Source: Escherichia phage HEMP4. From it: 39,891 bases of DNA. The stretch lies in the sequence record OR424387.1. The stretch is one strand, 5' to 3'. Below, in pieces: positions 1-39,891 of this stretch; within the stretch, counting starts at the first letter, position 1; the number at the start of each line of letters is the position of its first letter. Below the pieces are notes generated by a model. That model did no database searches and was not told where the DNA came from. It saw nothing but the letters and a program-made list of their open reading frames with translations. The translations under genes and the position numbers were made by a program.

Positions 1-127
1 CATGGCATTTTTCATGGTACTGATTTCCGGTGACGGTATATAAAACGGTACGATAAAAATTGAGATTTGGAAAAATGTTATCACTCAATTGGTTATGGTT
101 ATCGTAAATAATTGAGTGGGAATGATT
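1..127. repeat. Terminal direct repeat, copy 1 (identical to 39765..39891)
   Basis: First 127 nt of window match last 127 nt exactly by direct comparison; truncated by window edge so true length may be longer. Confidence 0.9.
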
Positions 128-2256: not shown

Positions 2257-2580
2257 GATGACCTCCTTTGAAGTTTTAGTTAGCAATCACCAGTTAGTAG
2301 CTGGTGATCGGGTGTCAACTAGAGCCTTCAAAGACGCTCCGGGCATATTCCCCTTTTGGGTATTGTATTACGCCTCTCCACCCGACCTTTGTACGGATGT
2401 GACTATGCCAAATTGCAGGCATAAAAAAGCCGCAAAGCTATCGGGTGCGGGTGACCGCTTTGAAGTTCTAGTGCGGTCAGTATGCGATAGCTCTGGCGGC
2501 ATTGTCAAATCATGCGCCACTGAGTCCAGCAATCTCTGCAATACCAATAGCGAGATAATCGCGATTCGTCAGGCGTGATT

Positions 2581-2829
2581 TTATTGCATATGTCTTAGCT
2601 CCACTGAAGTTGTGATTTTATATGGGTTGCCTTTTACCTCAATAACACGATGAGGATCATTTTTTAGCTCTTCCGTAATCTTCCGTAATCTTCTAACAGC
2701 TGAACTTCGGTGTTTATAACGGTAAGTTACAGTTTCTTTTCTCTGCAATACCTCATCATTGCGGTACTTAGTCAAAACCATGACGACTTCAAACCTGACG
2801 CCGTTGTGTGCAACCATAATCTGCTTCAT
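2581..2829 (-). CDS. Hypothetical protein (82 aa)
   Basis: ORF in operon context; internal ATG start overlaps stop of upstream methylase gene (translational coupling); contains 10-bp tandem repeat 2671..2690. Confidence 0.4.
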   Translation of the reverse strand: MKQIMVAHNGVRFEVVMVLTKYRNDEVLQRKETVTYRYKHRSSAVRRLRKITEELKNDPHRVIEVKGNPYKITTSVELRHMQ

Positions 2830-3476
2830 GCTGCACGCTCCCGCCCCTGGTTGTCTGTTGGTGACACCGGAGCATTGCTGAATGCATTTGTTAATCCGCC
2901 AATATCCAACGCGTATCCAGGGTGTAGTTGCACTGCCGGGTCTTCGCACTGATTACCCCAAACATCGAAGCCATGAGACGTCTGGCGGGCGAACAGTTCA
3001 ATGCGAGAAACATCGCCTAACAATTGCACAAGTTTTTCACGAACGACATCTGGTTTTCTTGAATGCTCAAGCCGCGGTGCGGTAAATGACTGAACGATCC
3101 CTGCATTAATGCGTGGAGGTAGTTTTCCCTTTACTGCAAACAGGCAATCTTCACTATTGGCGCGAGTCATGTGTCCCATACCCATAACCAGTTTATCTGG
3201 TTGTCGACTACCACATTTTATCCACGTGAAGCCCTTCATGGTCATCAGACGGAATCCCCAGGCTTCAACAACTTTTAGCGCTTCGAGTGGTTGTGTTGGC
3301 ACCCACCACATGGCCAACAGACAGTTTTCATCGGCCAAATCCCACACAGGAAGGCGGCAGATATCCATCACACTCATAACCGGATATTTAAAACTGGCAC
3401 CGCGATTACCATCTGCGGCTTTGTCCCGGTATACCCAGGGTGGATCTGCATAGATTAGTGTGTATTTCTTAGTCAT
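2826..3476 (-). CDS. DNA N6-adenine methyltransferase, MT-A70-like
   Basis: Protein begins MTKKYTLIYADPPW with DPPW catalytic motif typical of MT-A70/N6-adenine MTases; no adjacent restriction endonuclease gene recognised. Confidence 0.8.
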   Translation of the reverse strand: MTKKYTLIYADPPWVYRDKAADGNRGASFKYPVMSVMDICRLPVWDLADENCLLAMWWVPTQPLEALKVVEAWGFRLMTMKGFTWIKCGSRQPDKLVMGMGHMTRANSEDCLFAVKGKLPPRINAGIVQSFTAPRLEHSRKPDVVREKLVQLLGDVSRIELFARQTSHGFDVWGNQCEDPAVQLHPGYALDIGGLTNAFSNAPVSPTDNQGRERAA

Positions 3477-3768
3477 AAACCACCCCACAACATCCTATGC
3501 CGCTATAGTCGCCACGGCGAAGGCCGTTACCTTTTGTGATACATTGGTCCCTGCGAACCGCGATCCTTGCACGCTCAACATCACCAGAAGCAACATCCAT
3601 ACACTGAAGCCAAAGGTGGGCGGCAATGCGGAACTGCCCTTTTTTCTCTCTTTCAATCGCGCGTTTTTCGATCTCTATTGCCGCAGGAGTAACGGCAACA
3701 ACCTTTGAAGGGCTGCGCATTGAAACCTTGTTCATGTGATATTTTTCAAGTCGGCTTAACTTTCTCAC
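3469..3768 (-). CDS. Hypothetical protein (99 aa)
   Basis: ORF in leftward operon, overlaps methylase start by 8 nt; GTG start with GAGGG upstream. Confidence 0.4.
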   Translation of the reverse strand: MRKLSRLEKYHMNKVSMRSPSKVVAVTPAAIEIEKRAIEREKKGQFRIAAHLWLQCMDVASGDVERARIAVRRDQCITKGNGLRRGDYSGIGCCGVVYD

Positions 3769-3877
3769 TTAATCCAACCCTCTCTGAAAATTAATGCCAG
3801 CAGATAAAGCCATGCTGAAACAGAGGCCAGGAATAAGTACCATCCTGACCATTTGCTCCAGTGCCTTAGCAGCACAC

Positions 3878-4126
3878 TCATGCAGCGTTGCTCACAGGAC
3901 GATATACACGTTGCTGAACAGGAGGCTTTTTACCCTGGAACTCTGCCGGGCTTGCTGCCTGACGTTCATCAAGCCAACGCTCAACTTCATCACGGTTCCA
4001 TGCGCAGCGTTTATCGGTGATATACCAGCGTTTAGGAAATTCCCCTGCGCGCTCCATACGGTCGATAGTGCTCCATGACAGTGGCACCACCGCCAGGAGT
4101 TCCTTCTTACCTAATGCACCTTTCAT
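3878..4126 (-). CDS. AlpA-family DNA-binding protein / putative excisionase
   Basis: 82 aa; KKELLAVVPLSWSTIDRMERAGEFPKRWYIT...WNRDEVERWL matches AlpA/Xis-like HTH pattern; GAGG SD 6 nt upstream of ATG. Confidence 0.7.
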   Translation of the reverse strand: MKGALGKKELLAVVPLSWSTIDRMERAGEFPKRWYITDKRCAWNRDEVERWLDERQAASPAEFQGKKPPVQQRVYRPVSNAA

Positions 4127-4175
4127 AAATACCTCTCTTGGTTGCAGTGCGGCGCGCGTGGCGCCGCGGTGGTGG

Positions 4176-5057
4176 TTACATAGATGTTTCGTTTAATTCT
4201 TCCCGACGAACGCTGTAAACGTCGGTGGCTTTTGCCAGCAGTTCGTCATCATCTGAAAGTTTTTGTGCAATGTATTTGTAAGCCTTATCCAGTTCGGAGA
4301 CAGTGCTGTAATTCATCGCTGCGCTGGTAAAGGCCATCAGCATTTCTTCTGGCTCACGGCTATCCGCTTTACGCGTTTGCTCATCAGGCTTTTTCACTGA
4401 TTTAGCGTTGATCAGACTGTTCATTCCCGCAGCCGTAGTCATTTGCGGAGTAATGTCTCGCTCAACGCGCGGTGCCGTTTCCTGTAATTCGTCAGGGGTG
4501 TAAACACCGAGAAGTACATCAGGAGCGTGCAGGCGAGCCCATCGTTTCGTGCAAAGATAGGCAAGTTGCTGGCGCGGATCCTGTTCCCACAATGGAGAGT
4601 TACGCACTCCTGCTTGCGCCATACTGATGGTAAGCTCACGTGGTTCTGCTTCTCCTTTAAGAACTGCTGACACAGTTACCGTCAGATTCGGTGATTTATC
4701 TGTTTTGCCGTTAACATTCGACCAGTCACCGCTCCAGCGATAATTCAGGCGTGTCGCCAGCAGGCTGGAAGAGGATACGACCGCGTTTACCAACTGTGCT
4801 TCGTAGCCTAACGTTCCGTTTACCACATGCGTTTTCTGCGCCACGGCGAAAGGGTTCATTCCCCACTGTGCCGCCTGCATGGTCACCGCCAGGCAATCGG
4901 CAGGTTTGCCTTCAAGATGTTTCGGTACAGTCGCTTTGCTTTGTGACATCAACTCCGCGAAACGCACCAGTTGATTCATGCCCTCGGGGCTGAAGATTGC
5001 CGCAGCAGTGCCTACAGTTGCGCCTGGTTGTGATGTGATTGCGATATCATTGCTCAT
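4176..5057 (-). CDS. RecT/Red-beta family single-strand annealing protein
   Basis: 293 aa; segment PLWEQDPRQQLAYLCTKRWARLHAPDVLLGVYTPDE resembles conserved region of lambda Bet; directly downstream of and overlapping exonuclease gene. Confidence 0.6.
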   Translation of the reverse strand: MSNDIAITSQPGATVGTAAAIFSPEGMNQLVRFAELMSQSKATVPKHLEGKPADCLAVTMQAAQWGMNPFAVAQKTHVVNGTLGYEAQLVNAVVSSSSLLATRLNYRWSGDWSNVNGKTDKSPNLTVTVSAVLKGEAEPRELTISMAQAGVRNSPLWEQDPRQQLAYLCTKRWARLHAPDVLLGVYTPDELQETAPRVERDITPQMTTAAGMNSLINAKSVKKPDEQTRKADSREPEEMLMAFTSAAMNYSTVSELDKAYKYIAQKLSDDDELLAKATDVYSVRREELNETSM

Positions 5058-5875
5058 ACGTACATATCCTGTTTACGTGCCCAGTCAGGGCGTTTAATAA
5101 TTTCCACTCCGCCCCATTCATCGTTGATGCGGCATTCGTGATAGGTATTCAGATCCCGGCGGAACAGAGCGTGCCCGGCATCGACATCCGGCGCATCCAG
5201 CTCGAACACGCGTACCGGATACCGACCACAATCAATGCTTTCGCTCACGGCAAGAAAGAAAAAACCATGTGGCTGACCAGTAACCCTCATTGCGCCTTCG
5301 CGGTACATTGCGTCCTGCACGTGGTAGCGGAACTCCTCGATGTGGCGTGCAAAACGGTCCATATCTGTAACCTTTTTCACGTCGACGATCACGTTGTGCT
5401 CTTTCAGCCATTTGTCTGGACGAATGCGGCACAACTCACCAGTCTCTTCATCGTTCCAGTACATTGATGCTTCGCAGTAACCAGGTGCTTCCAGCATCCA
5501 GCGTGCCGCCGGGTGAGCCATTGCGCTATCACGCATCAGCTCCAGTTTCCGCCACTGCTCGGCATCAAGTACCGTAATCCCCATATCCGCCACATCACGA
5601 AGAAATGCCTCTTCGTCAGCTTTACCTTGTTTCGTCCGACGATCGAATTTCGGCGAAACAATGAAGCGTTTGTCGAACTCTCCAGGCTCCAGAAGCAGAT
5701 AGTGCAATGCGGTTCCCATATCCAGTGCAGACTTTTTCTCTTCGTCTTCTGGTGCTGCCTGAACCCATTTAAGAAGCGCCGGATTCTTGGCAACCATGTC
5801 CAGTTGCGACTTACTCACGCCGTCCCCGGCGTGGTAGTCTTCGTTGCTGATGTCGAAATAAATTCCCGGCTTCAT
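5054..5875 (-). CDS. RecE-like exonuclease (PD-(D/E)XK, exodeoxyribonuclease VIII type)
   Basis: 273 aa starting MKPGIYFDISNEDYHAGDGVSKSQLD, characteristic of phage exonuclease VIII-like proteins; paired with annealing protein. Confidence 0.75.
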   Translation of the reverse strand: MKPGIYFDISNEDYHAGDGVSKSQLDMVAKNPALLKWVQAAPEDEEKKSALDMGTALHYLLLEPGEFDKRFIVSPKFDRRTKQGKADEEAFLRDVADMGITVLDAEQWRKLELMRDSAMAHPAARWMLEAPGYCEASMYWNDEETGELCRIRPDKWLKEHNVIVDVKKVTDMDRFARHIEEFRYHVQDAMYREGAMRVTGQPHGFFFLAVSESIDCGRYPVRVFELDAPDVDAGHALFRRDLNTYHECRINDEWGGVEIIKRPDWARKQDMYV

Positions 5876-6171
5876 GCCGCGTCCCTCTGCCCATCAAGCT
5901 GATCAGCCAGATCCCAGCGGGCGATAATTGCCATTGCCTCGCGCCGGTAGGAATCCATCAGTTCTTCGAACTCAGGGCTGTCTTTAGCTGCTTCCAGCAC
6001 TTCCTGGCGAACTCCTTTGCCTGTTACAACGTCGAAAGTTGAGGCCAGTTGATGAAGCCGGATGCTCTCAATCAGTTCAACTTGTCGGTCATATAGCTGT
6101 TCTGACAGGCGGTAGTCCTTGTCGAATGCCAGCATGATTTTTTGAAGATTTTTCTGCTGATTAACGTTCAT
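5872..6171 (-). CDS. Hypothetical early protein (99 aa)
   Basis: ORF 5872..6186 with internal ATG at 6171 (MNVNQQ...); overlaps exonuclease start. Confidence 0.5.
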   Translation of the reverse strand: MNVNQQKNLQKIMLAFDKDYRLSEQLYDRQVELIESIRLHQLASTFDVVTGKGVRQEVLEAAKDSPEFEELMDSYRREAMAIIARWDLADQLDGQRDAA

Positions 6172-6173
6172 TA

Positions 6174-6326
6174 TCAGCCCTCCCATATCTCGTTATCGTT
6201 GGCCACATCGCGAGCTTCTTTGCTGACGAAAGCCCACTTAATACCTTCCTGTAAGGTGCGGAACTTCCAGCTCATGAATCCGCATGCAGTAACGCAGTAC
6301 CAACCGTTGATGATTTTCCACTGCAT
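6174..6326 (-). CDS. Small hypothetical protein (50 aa), first gene of leftward operon
   Basis: Hand-translated MQWKIINGWYCVTACGFMSWKFRTLQEGIKWAFVSKEARDVANDNEIWEG; GAGG SD upstream; below ORF-track length cutoff. Confidence 0.3.
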   Translation of the reverse strand: MQWKIINGWYCVTACGFMSWKFRTLQEGIKWAFVSKEARDVANDNEIWEG

Positions 6327-6345: not shown

Positions 6346-6360
6346 TTACCGTTGAGGTAA
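6346..6360. promoter_or_regulatory. Operator-like palindrome TTACC-N5-GGTAA (left operator region, site 1)
   Basis: ttaccgttgaggtaa, perfect inverted repeat, intergenic upstream of leftward operon. Confidence 0.55.
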
Positions 6361-6407
6361 TGATTATGCGTATTTGGTTTGGTGTCAATAGATATGAGTT
6401 AAAAAAA

Positions 6408-6422: not shown

Positions 6423-6479
6423 TCTTGCTGGCAATAAAAAAGCCGCCATGAGGCGGCTTACTTGCTGAAAACTATAGTT

Positions 6480-15820: not shown

Positions 15821-15897
15821 TGGCGCGGCATGCAGGATTCGAACCTGCGACCAACCGCTTAGAAGGCGGTTGCTCTGTCCAACTGAGCTAATGCCAC
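15821..15897 (-). tRNA. tRNA-Arg (anticodon UCU)
   Basis: Reverse complement folds as cloverleaf: acceptor GTGGCAT/ATGCCGC (one G-U), D-arm GCTC-AGTTGGACA-GAGC, anticodon stem ACCGC/GCGGT with loop CTTCTAA (anticodon TCT), T-arm GCAGG-TTCGAAT-CCTGC, discriminator G, CCA end; 77 nt. Confidence 0.85.
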
Positions 15898-39764: not shown

Positions 39765-39891
39765 CATGGCATTTTTCATGGTACTGATTTCCGGTGACGG
39801 TATATAAAACGGTACGATAAAAATTGAGATTTGGAAAAATGTTATCACTCAATTGGTTATGGTTATCGTAAATAATTGAGTGGGAATGATT
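39765..39891. repeat. Terminal direct repeat, copy 2 (identical to 1..127)
   Basis: Exact match to window start. Confidence 0.9.

What the first reader, a model, noticed from the sequence alone, without database searches (positions are those of the whole stretch)
2581..3768. Stand-alone MT-A70-type adenine methyltransferase in the early operon
A DPPW-motif methyltransferase is flanked by two small unknown genes with overlapping start/stop codons, and no cognate restriction endonuclease is evident. This suggests a role in anti-restriction or epigenetic control; target specificity is unknown.
Basis: partly seen in the sequence, partly recalled or inferred. Interest (0 to 1): 0.4.

Follow-up and report, generated by a model that had tools for sequence, protein, structure and literature searches.

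The report
Orphan MT-A70 methyltransferase of phiV10-like phage
The gene is a real, intact adenine methyltransferase with no restriction enzyme partner, but it is a common, already annotated gene of phiV10/epsilon15-type E. coli phages, and a close relative in Shiga-toxin phages has already been studied experimentally.

Summary
Window 2826-3476 (- strand) encodes a 216-aa full-length MT-A70 (PF05063) protein with DPPW at residues 11-14. Its ends overlap both neighbouring genes, and no restriction endonuclease is present anywhere in the phage.

It is not new. The window is a complete phiV10-like (Uetakevirus) genome, and the gene is phiV10 gp33 (about 98% nt identity). RefSeq annotates it as "MT-A70 family methyltransferase", and homologues occur in 911 of 5426 complete E. 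coli genomes.

The upstream "unknown" gene is a PerC-family protein. The downstream 82-aa gene sits in a variable cargo slot.

The enzyme is 83% identical over residues 1-187 to Stx-phage M.EcoPA8orf6770P, which is 99% identical to the O104:H4 enzyme reported as M.EcoGV.
- M.EcoGV methylates GATC when overexpressed.
- With the upstream subunit PNB-2, the PA8 enzyme prefers 16S rRNA and raises spontaneous prophage induction (PMC10810198).

PNB-2 is absent from this window, and the C-terminal tail differs.

My best reading is a stand-alone, early-left-operon N6-adenine methyltransferase, most likely Dam-like on DNA. An RNA target or a PerC partnership is not excluded.

Verdict: ordinary, already known, low interest.

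The parts
2826..3476 (-). MT-A70 family (beta-class) N6-adenine methyltransferase, 216 aa, ATG start at 3476; orthologue of phiV10 gp33
   Evidence: PF05063 scores 80.1 bits and covers the full profile. phrog_359 scores 401 bits. RefSeq WP_072678908.1 'MT-A70 family methyltransferase' lies on DNA that is 100% identical. AF2 gives pLDDT 83 and pTM 0.81. Foldseek top hits are METTL3 and Tetrahymena MTA1.
3435..3446 (-). Catalytic motif IV, DPPW (residues 11-14)
   Evidence: Read directly from the sequence as GATCCACCCTGG. In 84 homologues W14 is invariant and D11, P12 and P13 are each conserved in at least 90%. The motif aligns to the DPPW of Tetrahymena MTA1.
2826..2915 (-). Variable C-terminal tail of the MTase (about residues 188-216), predicted with low confidence
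   Evidence: Identity to the phiPA8 enzyme stops at residue 187. The pLDDT block means are 64, 47 and 42 over residues 191-216. Tail sequences differ among homologues.
3469..3768 (-). PerC-family small protein (99 aa, GTG start); its stop lies 8 nt inside the MTase gene
   Evidence: PF06069 scores 30.1 bits against a cut-off of 22.6. phrog_868 scores 207 bits. RefSeq names it 'PerC family transcriptional regulator'. The N-terminus matches the family consensus only from the GTG start.
2581..2829 (-). 82-aa protein of unknown function; ATGA overlap with the MTase stop; occupies a variable cargo slot
   Evidence: It matches phrog_9805 (unknown function) and nothing in Pfam, NCBIfam, PADLOC or PDB. 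In related phages the same slot holds DUF1382 (41 loci), a Ser/Thr phosphatase (15 loci) or this gene (4 loci).
3765..6326 (-). Rest of the early-left operon upstream of the trio: 50-aa and 104-aa hypotheticals, PD-(D/E)XK exonuclease, RecT, AlpA/Xis-like protein and a 38-aa membrane protein
   Evidence: Pfam and PHROG hits, RefSeq annotation, and contiguous or overlapping ORFs.
6360..6388 (-). pL-like sigma-70 promoter match (TTGACA-17-AATCAT) downstream of the repressor gene terminator (6440-6459); putative start of the operon that contains the MTase
   Evidence: Consensus scan only. The position is analogous to lambda pL. This is an inference, not a demonstrated promoter.

Best explanation
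The gene encodes an intact, minimal (no appended target-recognition domain) MT-A70/beta-class SAM-dependent N6-adenine methyltransferase. It is a standard accessory gene of phiV10/epsilon15-type temperate phages.

It lies near the end of the leftward early operon: repressor-proximal promoter, then exonuclease, RecT, AlpA/Xis-like protein, a 38-aa protein, PerC, the MTase and the 82-aa gene. It would therefore be made mainly after infection or induction, translationally coupled to its neighbours. It is an orphan enzyme, not half of a restriction-modification system.

By analogy with the 83%-identical Stx-phage enzyme (M.EcoGV / M.EcoPA8orf6770P), the catalytic subunit on its own most probably acts as a Dam-like DNA methyltransferase on GATC. 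That would methylate replicating phage DNA and so shield it from methylation-sensitive restriction and/or tune Dam-dependent lysis-lysogeny control. The PNB-2 subunit that retargets the Stx-phage enzyme to 16S rRNA is absent here.

Shown: identity, intactness, selection, operon position, lack of a REase, lack of PNB-2.
Inferred: timing of expression, dimeric action, GATC/DNA substrate, biological role.
For: Identity and intactness:
- Full-length PF05063 match with DPPW and conserved motif columns in 84 homologues.
- METTL3/MTA1-like fold, TM 0.64-0.69.
- dN/dS about 0.05.

Already annotated and widespread:
- 100% identical DNA in E. coli EC332, annotated as an MT-A70 family methyltransferase.
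- About 98% nt identity to phiV10 gp33.
- epsilon15 carries the same PerC-(gp30)-MTase arrangement.
- Homologues in 911 of 5426 complete E. coli genomes and in 219 phage records.

Orphan status:
- No REase anywhere in the phage.

Link to the studied enzymes:
- 83% identity over residues 1-187 to phiPA8 gp5.
- 83% identity to the MT-A70 protein of the O104:H4 strain HUSEC2011, which is itself 99% identical to phiPA8 gp5.
- PMC10810198 states that M.EcoGV methylates GATC in vivo when overproduced without PNB-2, and that similar enzymes are listed as GATC MTases in REBASE.
- No PNB-2 or PNB-1 homologue in the window (tblastn best E 5.9).

Operon:
- Contiguous or overlapping - strand ORFs run from a promoter-like site at 6388-6360.
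Against: - Purified M.EcoPA8orf6770P alone showed almost no activity on dam- DNA in vitro, and with PNB-2 it preferred 16S rRNA (PMC10810198). DNA/GATC may therefore be an overexpression side activity.
- The primary paper for the GATC claim (Fang 2012) was not available to me, and the equation of M.EcoGV with the HUSEC2011 gene rests on PMC10810198.
- E. coli already has Dam, so a second GATC methylase has no obvious need in this host.
- The C-terminal tail differs from the studied enzyme.
- A PerC-domain gene is a recurrent, translationally coupled upstream neighbour, which could mean the enzyme does not work alone.
- No experiment exists for this orthologue.
Confidence: 0.5

Rival explanations
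1. The enzyme is mainly an RNA (16S rRNA) N6-adenine methyltransferase that modulates translation and thereby the frequency of spontaneous prophage induction, as proposed for the Stx-phage orthologue. DNA methylation would be a side activity.
For: - 83% identity to M.EcoPA8orf6770P. Its holoenzyme used RNA more than 13-fold better than DNA, preferred 16S rRNA and 30S subunits, and raised induction and virulence in a DPPW-dependent way (PMC10810198).
- The nearest solved structures include the RNA methyltransferase METTL3.
Against: - RNA preference required PNB-2, which is absent from the window.
- The C-terminal tail suggested to bind PNB-2 is replaced here.
- The modified base was never identified in that study, and the assay measured SAM consumption only.
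- The other nearest structures (Tetrahymena MTA1) are DNA 6mA methyltransferases.
Confidence: 0.2
2. The MTase works as a two-gene module with the PerC-family protein encoded immediately upstream. PerC would be a targeting or activating subunit, a functional analogue of PNB-2, rather than an independent transcription factor.
For: - The stop of PerC and the start of the MTase overlap by 8 nt.
- A PerC-domain ORF lies upstream on the same strand in 98 of 164 related loci, and never downstream or on the opposite strand.
- It is directly adjacent in 9 divergent loci. Seven of these sit in a different context, the nin region of lambdoid prophages, with no uetakevirus backbone genes.
- It occupies the position that PNB-2 holds in Stx phages.
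- A one-base deletion yields a natural in-frame PerC-MTase fusion, P0003.
- MT-A70 enzymes generally need partner subunits (PMC10810198; PMC7544214).
Against: - AF2 of the natural fusion gave no confident docking (pTM 0.58, linker disordered).
- No PerC+MT-A70 fusions appear among the 63 PerC relatives found in 1.84 billion representatives.
- There is no sequence or profile similarity between PerC and PNB-2.
- Other genes are often inserted between PerC and the MTase: gp30 in epsilon15, DUF1317 plus DGQHR in SPN1S, and small ORFs elsewhere.
- Closely related MTases have many different upstream genes.
- PerC and MTase divergence are barely correlated (Mantel r 0.26, p about 0.065).
- The long C-tail also occurs with non-PerC upstream genes.
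Confidence: 0.12
3. The gene is the surviving methylase of a decayed restriction-modification system, or an inactive remnant with no present function.
For: PADLOC classes it with Type II methyltransferases. The literature places MT-A70 relatives within radiations that include R-M methylases (PMC4738411).
Against: - There is no endonuclease or pseudogene next to it in any of about 160 loci inspected. The neighbours are phage early genes.
- Strong purifying selection (dN/dS about 0.05), intact motifs and a demonstrated DPPW-dependent phenotype of the orthologue all argue that it is active.
Confidence: 0.03

Closest known systems
phiV10 gp33 (PhiV10p33, YP_512288.1) and the equivalent epsilon15_p10 / SPN1S_0032 methyltransferases of the genus Uetakevirus
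   Same: Same gene in the same place: the early-left operon between the PerC/AlpA/RecT block and the integrase. It has about 98% nt identity to phiV10 and the same 216-aa length and tail. epsilon15 has PerC-gp30-MTase.
   Different: The downstream slot differs: an 82-aa unknown plus an Ant gene here, DUF1382 in phiV10. epsilon15 and SPN1S have extra genes between PerC and the MTase. None of these has been characterised biochemically, as far as the searchable literature shows.
M.EcoPA8orf6770P (phage phiPA8 gp5) and the 99%-identical O104:H4 Stx2-prophage enzyme reported as M.EcoGV
   Same: 83% identical over residues 1-187 with the same DPPW and other motifs. It is likewise an orphan prophage enzyme near the integrase end of an early operon, with overlapping neighbours.
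   Different: The Stx-phage enzyme has a different 21-aa tail. It is preceded by PNB-2 (143 aa), which forms a 1:1 complex with it and confers 16S rRNA preference. Here PNB-2 is absent and a PerC-family gene takes its place. The phage backbones also differ (Sepvirinae against Uetakevirus).
Eukaryotic MT-A70 enzymes: METTL3-METTL14 and the ciliate MTA1/AMT1 complex
   Same: Same fold and motif order. These are the best PDB matches by sequence (E 2e-13 for MTA1, 3e-6 for METTL3) and by structure (TM 0.64-0.69).
   Different: Those act as obligate heterodimers with a catalytically dead MT-A70 paralogue plus extra subunits. The phage has a single MT-A70 gene, no paralogue, and only 18-25% identity to them.
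E. coli Dam and phage Dam-type orphan methylases (D12 class, PF02086, e.g. M.EcoVT2Dam)
   Same: Orphan N6-adenine methylases carried by temperate phages, with GATC as the reported target of the close relative M.EcoGV.
   Different: A different structural class (alpha, PF02086). This protein matches only PF05063.
M.EcoGII / M.EcoGI non-specific prophage adenine methyltransferases
   Same: Beta-class orphan methylases on E. coli prophages, silent in the lysogen and thought to protect phage DNA (PMC5778455).
   Different: Those are 349 aa, carry a DPPY motif and have a central target-recognition domain. This is not the same family as the 216-aa DPPW protein here.

Membership tests
MT-A70 family (Pfam PF05063), beta-class amino-methyltransferases | Significant full-length match to the family profile above the curated cut-off | tested here: met
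   80.1 bits against a cut-off of 23.9, with residues 5-176 matching profile positions 1-172 of 172.
MT-A70 family (Pfam PF05063), beta-class amino-methyltransferases | Catalytic motif IV (D/N/S)PP(Y/F/W) near the N-terminus, ahead of the SAM-binding and C-terminal motifs (permuted beta order) | tested here: met
   DPPW at residues 11-14. HSRKP at residues 138-142 and ELFAR...WGNQ at residues 160-176 align to the equivalent MTA1 segments.
MT-A70 family (Pfam PF05063), beta-class amino-methyltransferases | METTL3/MTA1-like Rossmann fold | tested here: met
   AF2 model with pLDDT 83 and pTM 0.81. Foldseek against the PDB returns METTL3 and MTA1 chains as the top 50 hits, with E about 1e-13 and TM 0.64-0.69.
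MT-A70 family (Pfam PF05063), beta-class amino-methyltransferases | SAM-dependent N6-adenine methyl transfer | not testable with these tools
   Only inferred from motif conservation, purifying selection and the DPPW-dependent phenotype of the orthologue.
M.EcoPA8orf6770P-PNB-2 16S rRNA methyltransferase holoenzyme (PMC10810198) | Catalytic subunit closely related to phiPA8 gp5 | tested here: met
   156 of 187 residues identical (83%) over residues 1-187.
M.EcoPA8orf6770P-PNB-2 16S rRNA methyltransferase holoenzyme (PMC10810198) | Adjacent upstream gene for PNB-2, the subunit that confers rRNA preference | tested here: not met
   The upstream gene is PerC family and has no alignment to PNB-2. 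tblastn of PNB-2 and PNB-1 against the whole window gave a best E of 5.9.
M.EcoPA8orf6770P-PNB-2 16S rRNA methyltransferase holoenzyme (PMC10810198) | STEC-type C-terminal tail (last ~27 aa), proposed to be needed for holoenzyme formation | tested here: not met
   The alignment ends at residue 187 and the tails are unrelated.
M.EcoPA8orf6770P-PNB-2 16S rRNA methyltransferase holoenzyme (PMC10810198) | Preferential methylation of 16S rRNA and an increase in spontaneous induction | not testable with these tools
   Requires biochemistry and genetics.
Type II restriction-modification system | A cognate restriction endonuclease gene linked to the methylase | tested here: not met
   No REase in the RefSeq annotation of the whole prophage. 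No PADLOC hits in the neighbours. The neighbours in about 160 related loci are phage early genes.
Dam-like GATC orphan methylase (functional class) | m6A at GATC in DNA | not testable with these tools
   Reported for the 83%-identical M.EcoGV on overexpression (PMC10810198 citing Fang 2012). The original paper is not held. Structurally this is not a D12/Dam-class protein.
PerC family (PF06069), for the upstream gene | Profile match above the curated cut-off | tested here: met
   30.1 bits against a cut-off of 22.6 and phrog_868 at 207 bits. AF2 predicts three helices over fusion-model residues 12-64 with pLDDT about 80-88. Function as a transcription activator was not tested.

The most novel reading that the evidence does not exclude
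PerC-domain proteins are dedicated partners of phage MT-A70 methyltransferases, acting as targeting or activating subunits in the way PNB-2 does. On this reading the PerC-MTase pair is a mobile two-gene module, found in the early-left operon of uetakeviruses and in the nin region of lambdoid prophages. Some 'PerC-type activators' would then act through adenine methylation of RNA or DNA rather than by binding promoters.
Probability: 0.1. Interest if true: 0.65.

Novelty: already known. Interest (0 to 1): 0.2.

Why it matters
As it stands this is a routine annotation. An orphan MT-A70 methylase is standard equipment of phiV10/epsilon15-type phages and sits in about one in six complete E. coli genomes.

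It has some wider relevance because the 83%-identical Stx-phage enzyme was reported to control spontaneous induction, and hence Shiga toxin release, through rRNA methylation with a partner subunit. This phage carries the same catalytic subunit without that partner. That makes it a natural comparison for asking what the catalytic subunit does alone, and whether the PerC-family neighbour substitutes for PNB-2.

phiV10-type phages are also used as O157 reporter and typing phages, so knowing how their DNA is methylated has practical value for host range.

Tried and rejected
1. M.EcoGIX was my first recollection. It is a plasmid-borne single-strand-specific MTase, not this gene.
2. M.EcoGII/M.EcoGI non-specific prophage MTases are 349 aa with DPPY and a TRD, a different family.
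3. I tested whether the MTase C-tail co-varies with the upstream partner. It does not: the long ..SPTDNQGRERAA tail also occurs behind non-PerC genes (L140-L149).
4. I tested whether PNB-2 is a diverged PerC protein. BLAST found no alignment and hhalign gave a probability of 0.5% on small alignments.
5. AF2 on the natural PerC-MTase fusion P0003 gave pTM 0.58 with a disordered linker and no evidence of docking. No PAE is available, so the result is inconclusive.
6. Two MAFFT alignments for that job (A2, A4) were misaligned, with MTase N-termini pulled into PerC columns. I discarded them after checking and used A3.
7. A profile search of PerC against 1.84 billion representatives looked for PerC+MT-A70 fusions and found none. 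The long multi-stretch hits are unrelated repeat proteins (FIVAR, Sushi).
8. A co-divergence (Mantel) test of PerC against MTase was weak: r 0.26, p about 0.065.
9. I first assumed that epsilon15 lacks the MTase, because megablast missed it. That was wrong: it has one, separated from PerC by gp30.
10. Fang et al. 2012, the primary source for M.EcoGV = GATC, is not in the held library.
11. GATC is modestly under-represented in the window (142 observed against 193 expected). This is in line with what is reported for mobile elements generally and is not informative on specificity.
12. The 82-aa gene has no hit in Pfam, NCBIfam, PADLOC or PDB.

Full report
**What is there**

The interval 2581-3768 holds three tightly packed genes on the - strand.

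- The central ORF is best read from the ATG at 3476 to the stop at 2826, giving 216 aa. It begins MTKKYTLIYADPPW, and DPPW is encoded at 3435-3446.
- It matches Pfam MT-A70 (PF05063) over the entire profile: 80.1 bits against a cut-off of 23.9, E 2.5e-22. It also matches PHROG 359 'DNA methyltransferase' at 401 bits and a PADLOC Type II MTase model at 258 bits.
- Its stop overlaps the ATG of an 82-aa gene (2581-2829) as ATGA.
- The upstream 99-aa gene (3469-3768, GTG start) ends 8 nt inside it. That gene in turn overlaps a 38-aa gene by 4 nt.

The upstream gene is not unknown. It is a PerC-family protein (PF06069, 30.1 bits against a cut-off of 22.6; phrog_868 at 207 bits).

**Genomic setting**

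The window's first 127 nt are identical to its last 127 nt, so it is a complete circular phage contig of 39,764 unique bases.

- The 1.9-kb stretch tested (2300-4200) is 100% identical to a prophage next to guaA in E. coli EC332.
- From the MTase gene onward (about 2821-4200) that stretch is about 98% identical to phage phiV10, genus Uetakevirus.
- On the - strand the order is: repressor gene with a terminator-like hairpin, a promoter-like site at 6388-6360, two small ORFs, a PD-(D/E)XK exonuclease, RecT, an AlpA/Xis-like protein, a 38-aa membrane protein, PerC, the MTase and the 82-aa gene. After a 295-bp gap come an Ant gene and the integrase.
- This is the leftward early operon, so 'early operon' is right. 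The promoter and terminator are consensus matches only.

The RefSeq annotation of the whole prophage contains no restriction endonuclease. The only nuclease-like protein is the RecE-type partner of RecT. The MTase is an orphan.

**Is it a working enzyme?**

- In an alignment of 84 homologues the motif columns are conserved. W14, K141, P142, E160 and F162 are invariant, and D11, P12 and P13 are each conserved in at least 90%.
- Against the phiPA8 orthologue pN is 0.10 and pS is 0.71 (saturated), giving dN/dS of about 0.05.
- AlphaFold2 with that alignment gives a confident core (mean pLDDT 83, pTM 0.81). It has floppy loops after DPPW and around residues 95-110, and a low-confidence C-terminal tail from about residue 192.
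- Foldseek against the PDB returns only METTL3 catalytic domains and Tetrahymena MTA1 (TM 0.64-0.69). Sequence search of the PDB gives the same answer.
- There is no appended target-recognition domain.

**How common and how known?**

- Homologues are found in 911 of 5426 complete E. coli genomes. By best match per record, 541 records are at 95% nt identity or more and 385 are at 60-80%.
- They occur in 219 deposited phage genomes, including 110 Stx2a-converting phages, and across Enterobacterales prophages.
- phiV10 gp33 is annotated as a putative adenine methylase in its GenBank record DQ126339.2 and as a DNA methyltransferase in RefSeq. epsilon15 carries the equivalent gene.

**The decisive literature**

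Gong, Chakraborty and Koudelka (NAR 2023/24, PMC10810198) studied the Stx-phage orthologue M.EcoPA8orf6770P.

- An IS629 insertion in the gene (phage PA2) lowers spontaneous induction and amoeba killing.
- A plasmid copy complements the defect, and a DPPW-to-APPA mutant does not.
- The purified protein alone has near-background activity on DNA or RNA.
- It co-purifies 1:1 with the product of the upstream overlapping gene, PNB-2. The complex uses RNA more than 13-fold better than DNA and prefers 16S rRNA and 30S subunits.
- The authors note that the highly similar M.EcoGV of O104:H4 methylates GATC in vivo when overproduced without PNB-2, and that similar enzymes are listed as GATC MTases in REBASE.

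I checked how this window relates to those enzymes.

- The window's enzyme is 83% identical to phiPA8 gp5 over residues 1-187, after which the tails are unrelated.
- The MT-A70 gene of the O104:H4 strain HUSEC2011 is 99% identical to phiPA8 gp5 and has the same PNB-2 neighbour.
- PNB-2 and PNB-1 have no homologue anywhere in the window.

**Neighbourhood analysis**

I fetched 160 related loci: 80 genomes of different species and 80 viral contigs. Together with three annotated loci fetched earlier and the window itself, 164 were analysed. I then called the flanking ORFs.

- The MTase is almost always translationally coupled to whatever precedes and follows it, with -1, -4 or -8 overlaps.
- The downstream slot is cargo-like: DUF1382 in 41 loci, a Ser/Thr phosphatase in 15 and this 82-aa gene in 4.
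- The upstream gene is also variable, even among MTases that are about 90% identical. PNB-2-like genes precede only phiPA8 and one Raoultella locus.
- A PerC-domain ORF lies upstream on the same strand in 98 of 164 loci, and in 41 of the 106 whose MTase is below 95% identical. It is never downstream or on the other strand.
- Most of these loci share the uetakevirus backbone, where other small genes can sit between PerC and the MTase.
- Seven loci lack any uetakevirus backbone gene: L021, L022, L027, L023, L030, L059 and L070. They have a PerC-domain gene directly abutting the MTase in the nin region of lambdoid prophages, between the replication genes and rusA.

The PerC-MTase juxtaposition therefore recurs in two unrelated operon contexts.

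**Tests of a physical PerC-MTase partnership were negative or inconclusive**

- AF2 of a natural one-base-deletion fusion (P0003) gave pTM 0.58 with a disordered linker.
- No PerC+MT-A70 fusions exist among the 63 PerC relatives found in 1.84 billion representative proteins.
- PerC and PNB-2 show no sequence or profile similarity.
- The MTase tail does not co-vary with PerC.
- Divergence of the two genes is only weakly correlated (Mantel r 0.26, p about 0.065). For example, L021 and L022 share 93% identity in the MTase but 27% in PerC.

I keep this as the most novel reading not excluded, at about 10%.

**Mechanism**

The identity is secure. This is an orphan MT-A70 N6-adenine methyltransferase of a phiV10-like phage. 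It is expressed, by inference, from the early-left operon on infection or induction.

For the substrate I favour DNA, probably GATC, at a confidence of about 0.5.
- That is the only sequence-resolved activity reported for the catalytic subunit on its own.
- The rRNA-directing subunit is missing here.

The main rival is RNA/rRNA methylation affecting induction, as in phiPA8 (about 0.2). After that come the PerC-module idea (about 0.12) and a decayed R-M system or dead gene (about 0.03). The last is contradicted by selection, by intact motifs and by the absence of any linked endonuclease in about 160 loci.

**Verdict**

The finding is real but ordinary. The gene is already annotated, is widespread, and belongs to a family with a published functional study. 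Novelty: already known. Interest: 0.2.

Noticed in passing
window 1-127 and 39765-39891: The first 127 nt are identical to the last 127 nt. The window is therefore a complete circular (or assembler-overlapped) phage genome of 39,764 unique bases, not a chromosomal slice.
   Followed up: yes
L021, L022, L027, L023, L030, L059, L070 (about 3500-4600 in each locus): In non-uetakevirus lambdoid prophages a PerC-domain gene directly abuts an MT-A70 gene in the nin region, in the order cI-cro-cII-O-like-[PerC]-MTase-...-RusA. Five of these PerC genes carry a 70-90 aa N-terminal extension. The PerC-MTase pair thus recurs in a second, unrelated operon context.
   Followed up: partly
protein P0003 (297 aa); corresponds to window 3469-3476: A natural in-frame PerC-MTase fusion. 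Comparing P0003 with the window sequence at the 8-nt overlap (GTTTATG) suggests loss of one T created it. It is seen on one contig only and may be a sequencing error. AF2 did not dock the two parts.
   Followed up: partly
L165 (Salmonella phage SPN1S) 3542-4537; E. coli hit H128: A DGQHR-domain (DndB-like) gene sits directly upstream of, and overlaps, the MT-A70 gene in SPN1S and in some E. coli prophages. This could be another type of DNA-modification-related partner.
   Followed up: no
homologues P0069, P0048, P0080, P0019, P0075; loci L016, L039, L047, L070, L072, L078: Several homologues carry variant motif IV sequences: DPAW (repeatedly), EPPW and DSAW instead of DPPW. The DPAW set includes the PNB-2-like-associated Raoultella enzyme (L072). 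Whether these are active is unknown.
   Followed up: no
window 15821-15897 (- strand): The phage carries a tRNA-Arg (anticodon TCT) gene.
   Followed up: no
window 4176-5875 (- strand): RecT (4176-5057) and the PD-(D/E)XK exonuclease (5054-5875) are separate genes overlapping by 4 nt. In the phiV10 record the equivalent region is annotated as a single fused RecE-RecT ORF of 1761 nt.
   Followed up: no
window 2287-2580: A 295-bp non-coding gap lies between the 82-aa gene and the Ant gene. It contains a - strand promoter-like site (2508-2479, TTGACA-18-CATACT) that could drive ant independently of the early-left operon. This region and the 82-aa gene are absent from phiV10.
   Followed up: no
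whole window: GATC is modestly under-represented: 142 observed against 193 expected from a Markov model. The DPPW codons themselves contain a GATC.
   Followed up: partly
window 3469-3768: The PerC-family protein gives a sub-threshold match to the ANR (AraC negative regulator) family, NF033650: 23.6 bits against a cut-off of 32. The C-terminal YSGI...GVVYD is strongly conserved across the PerC homologues aligned.
   Followed up: no
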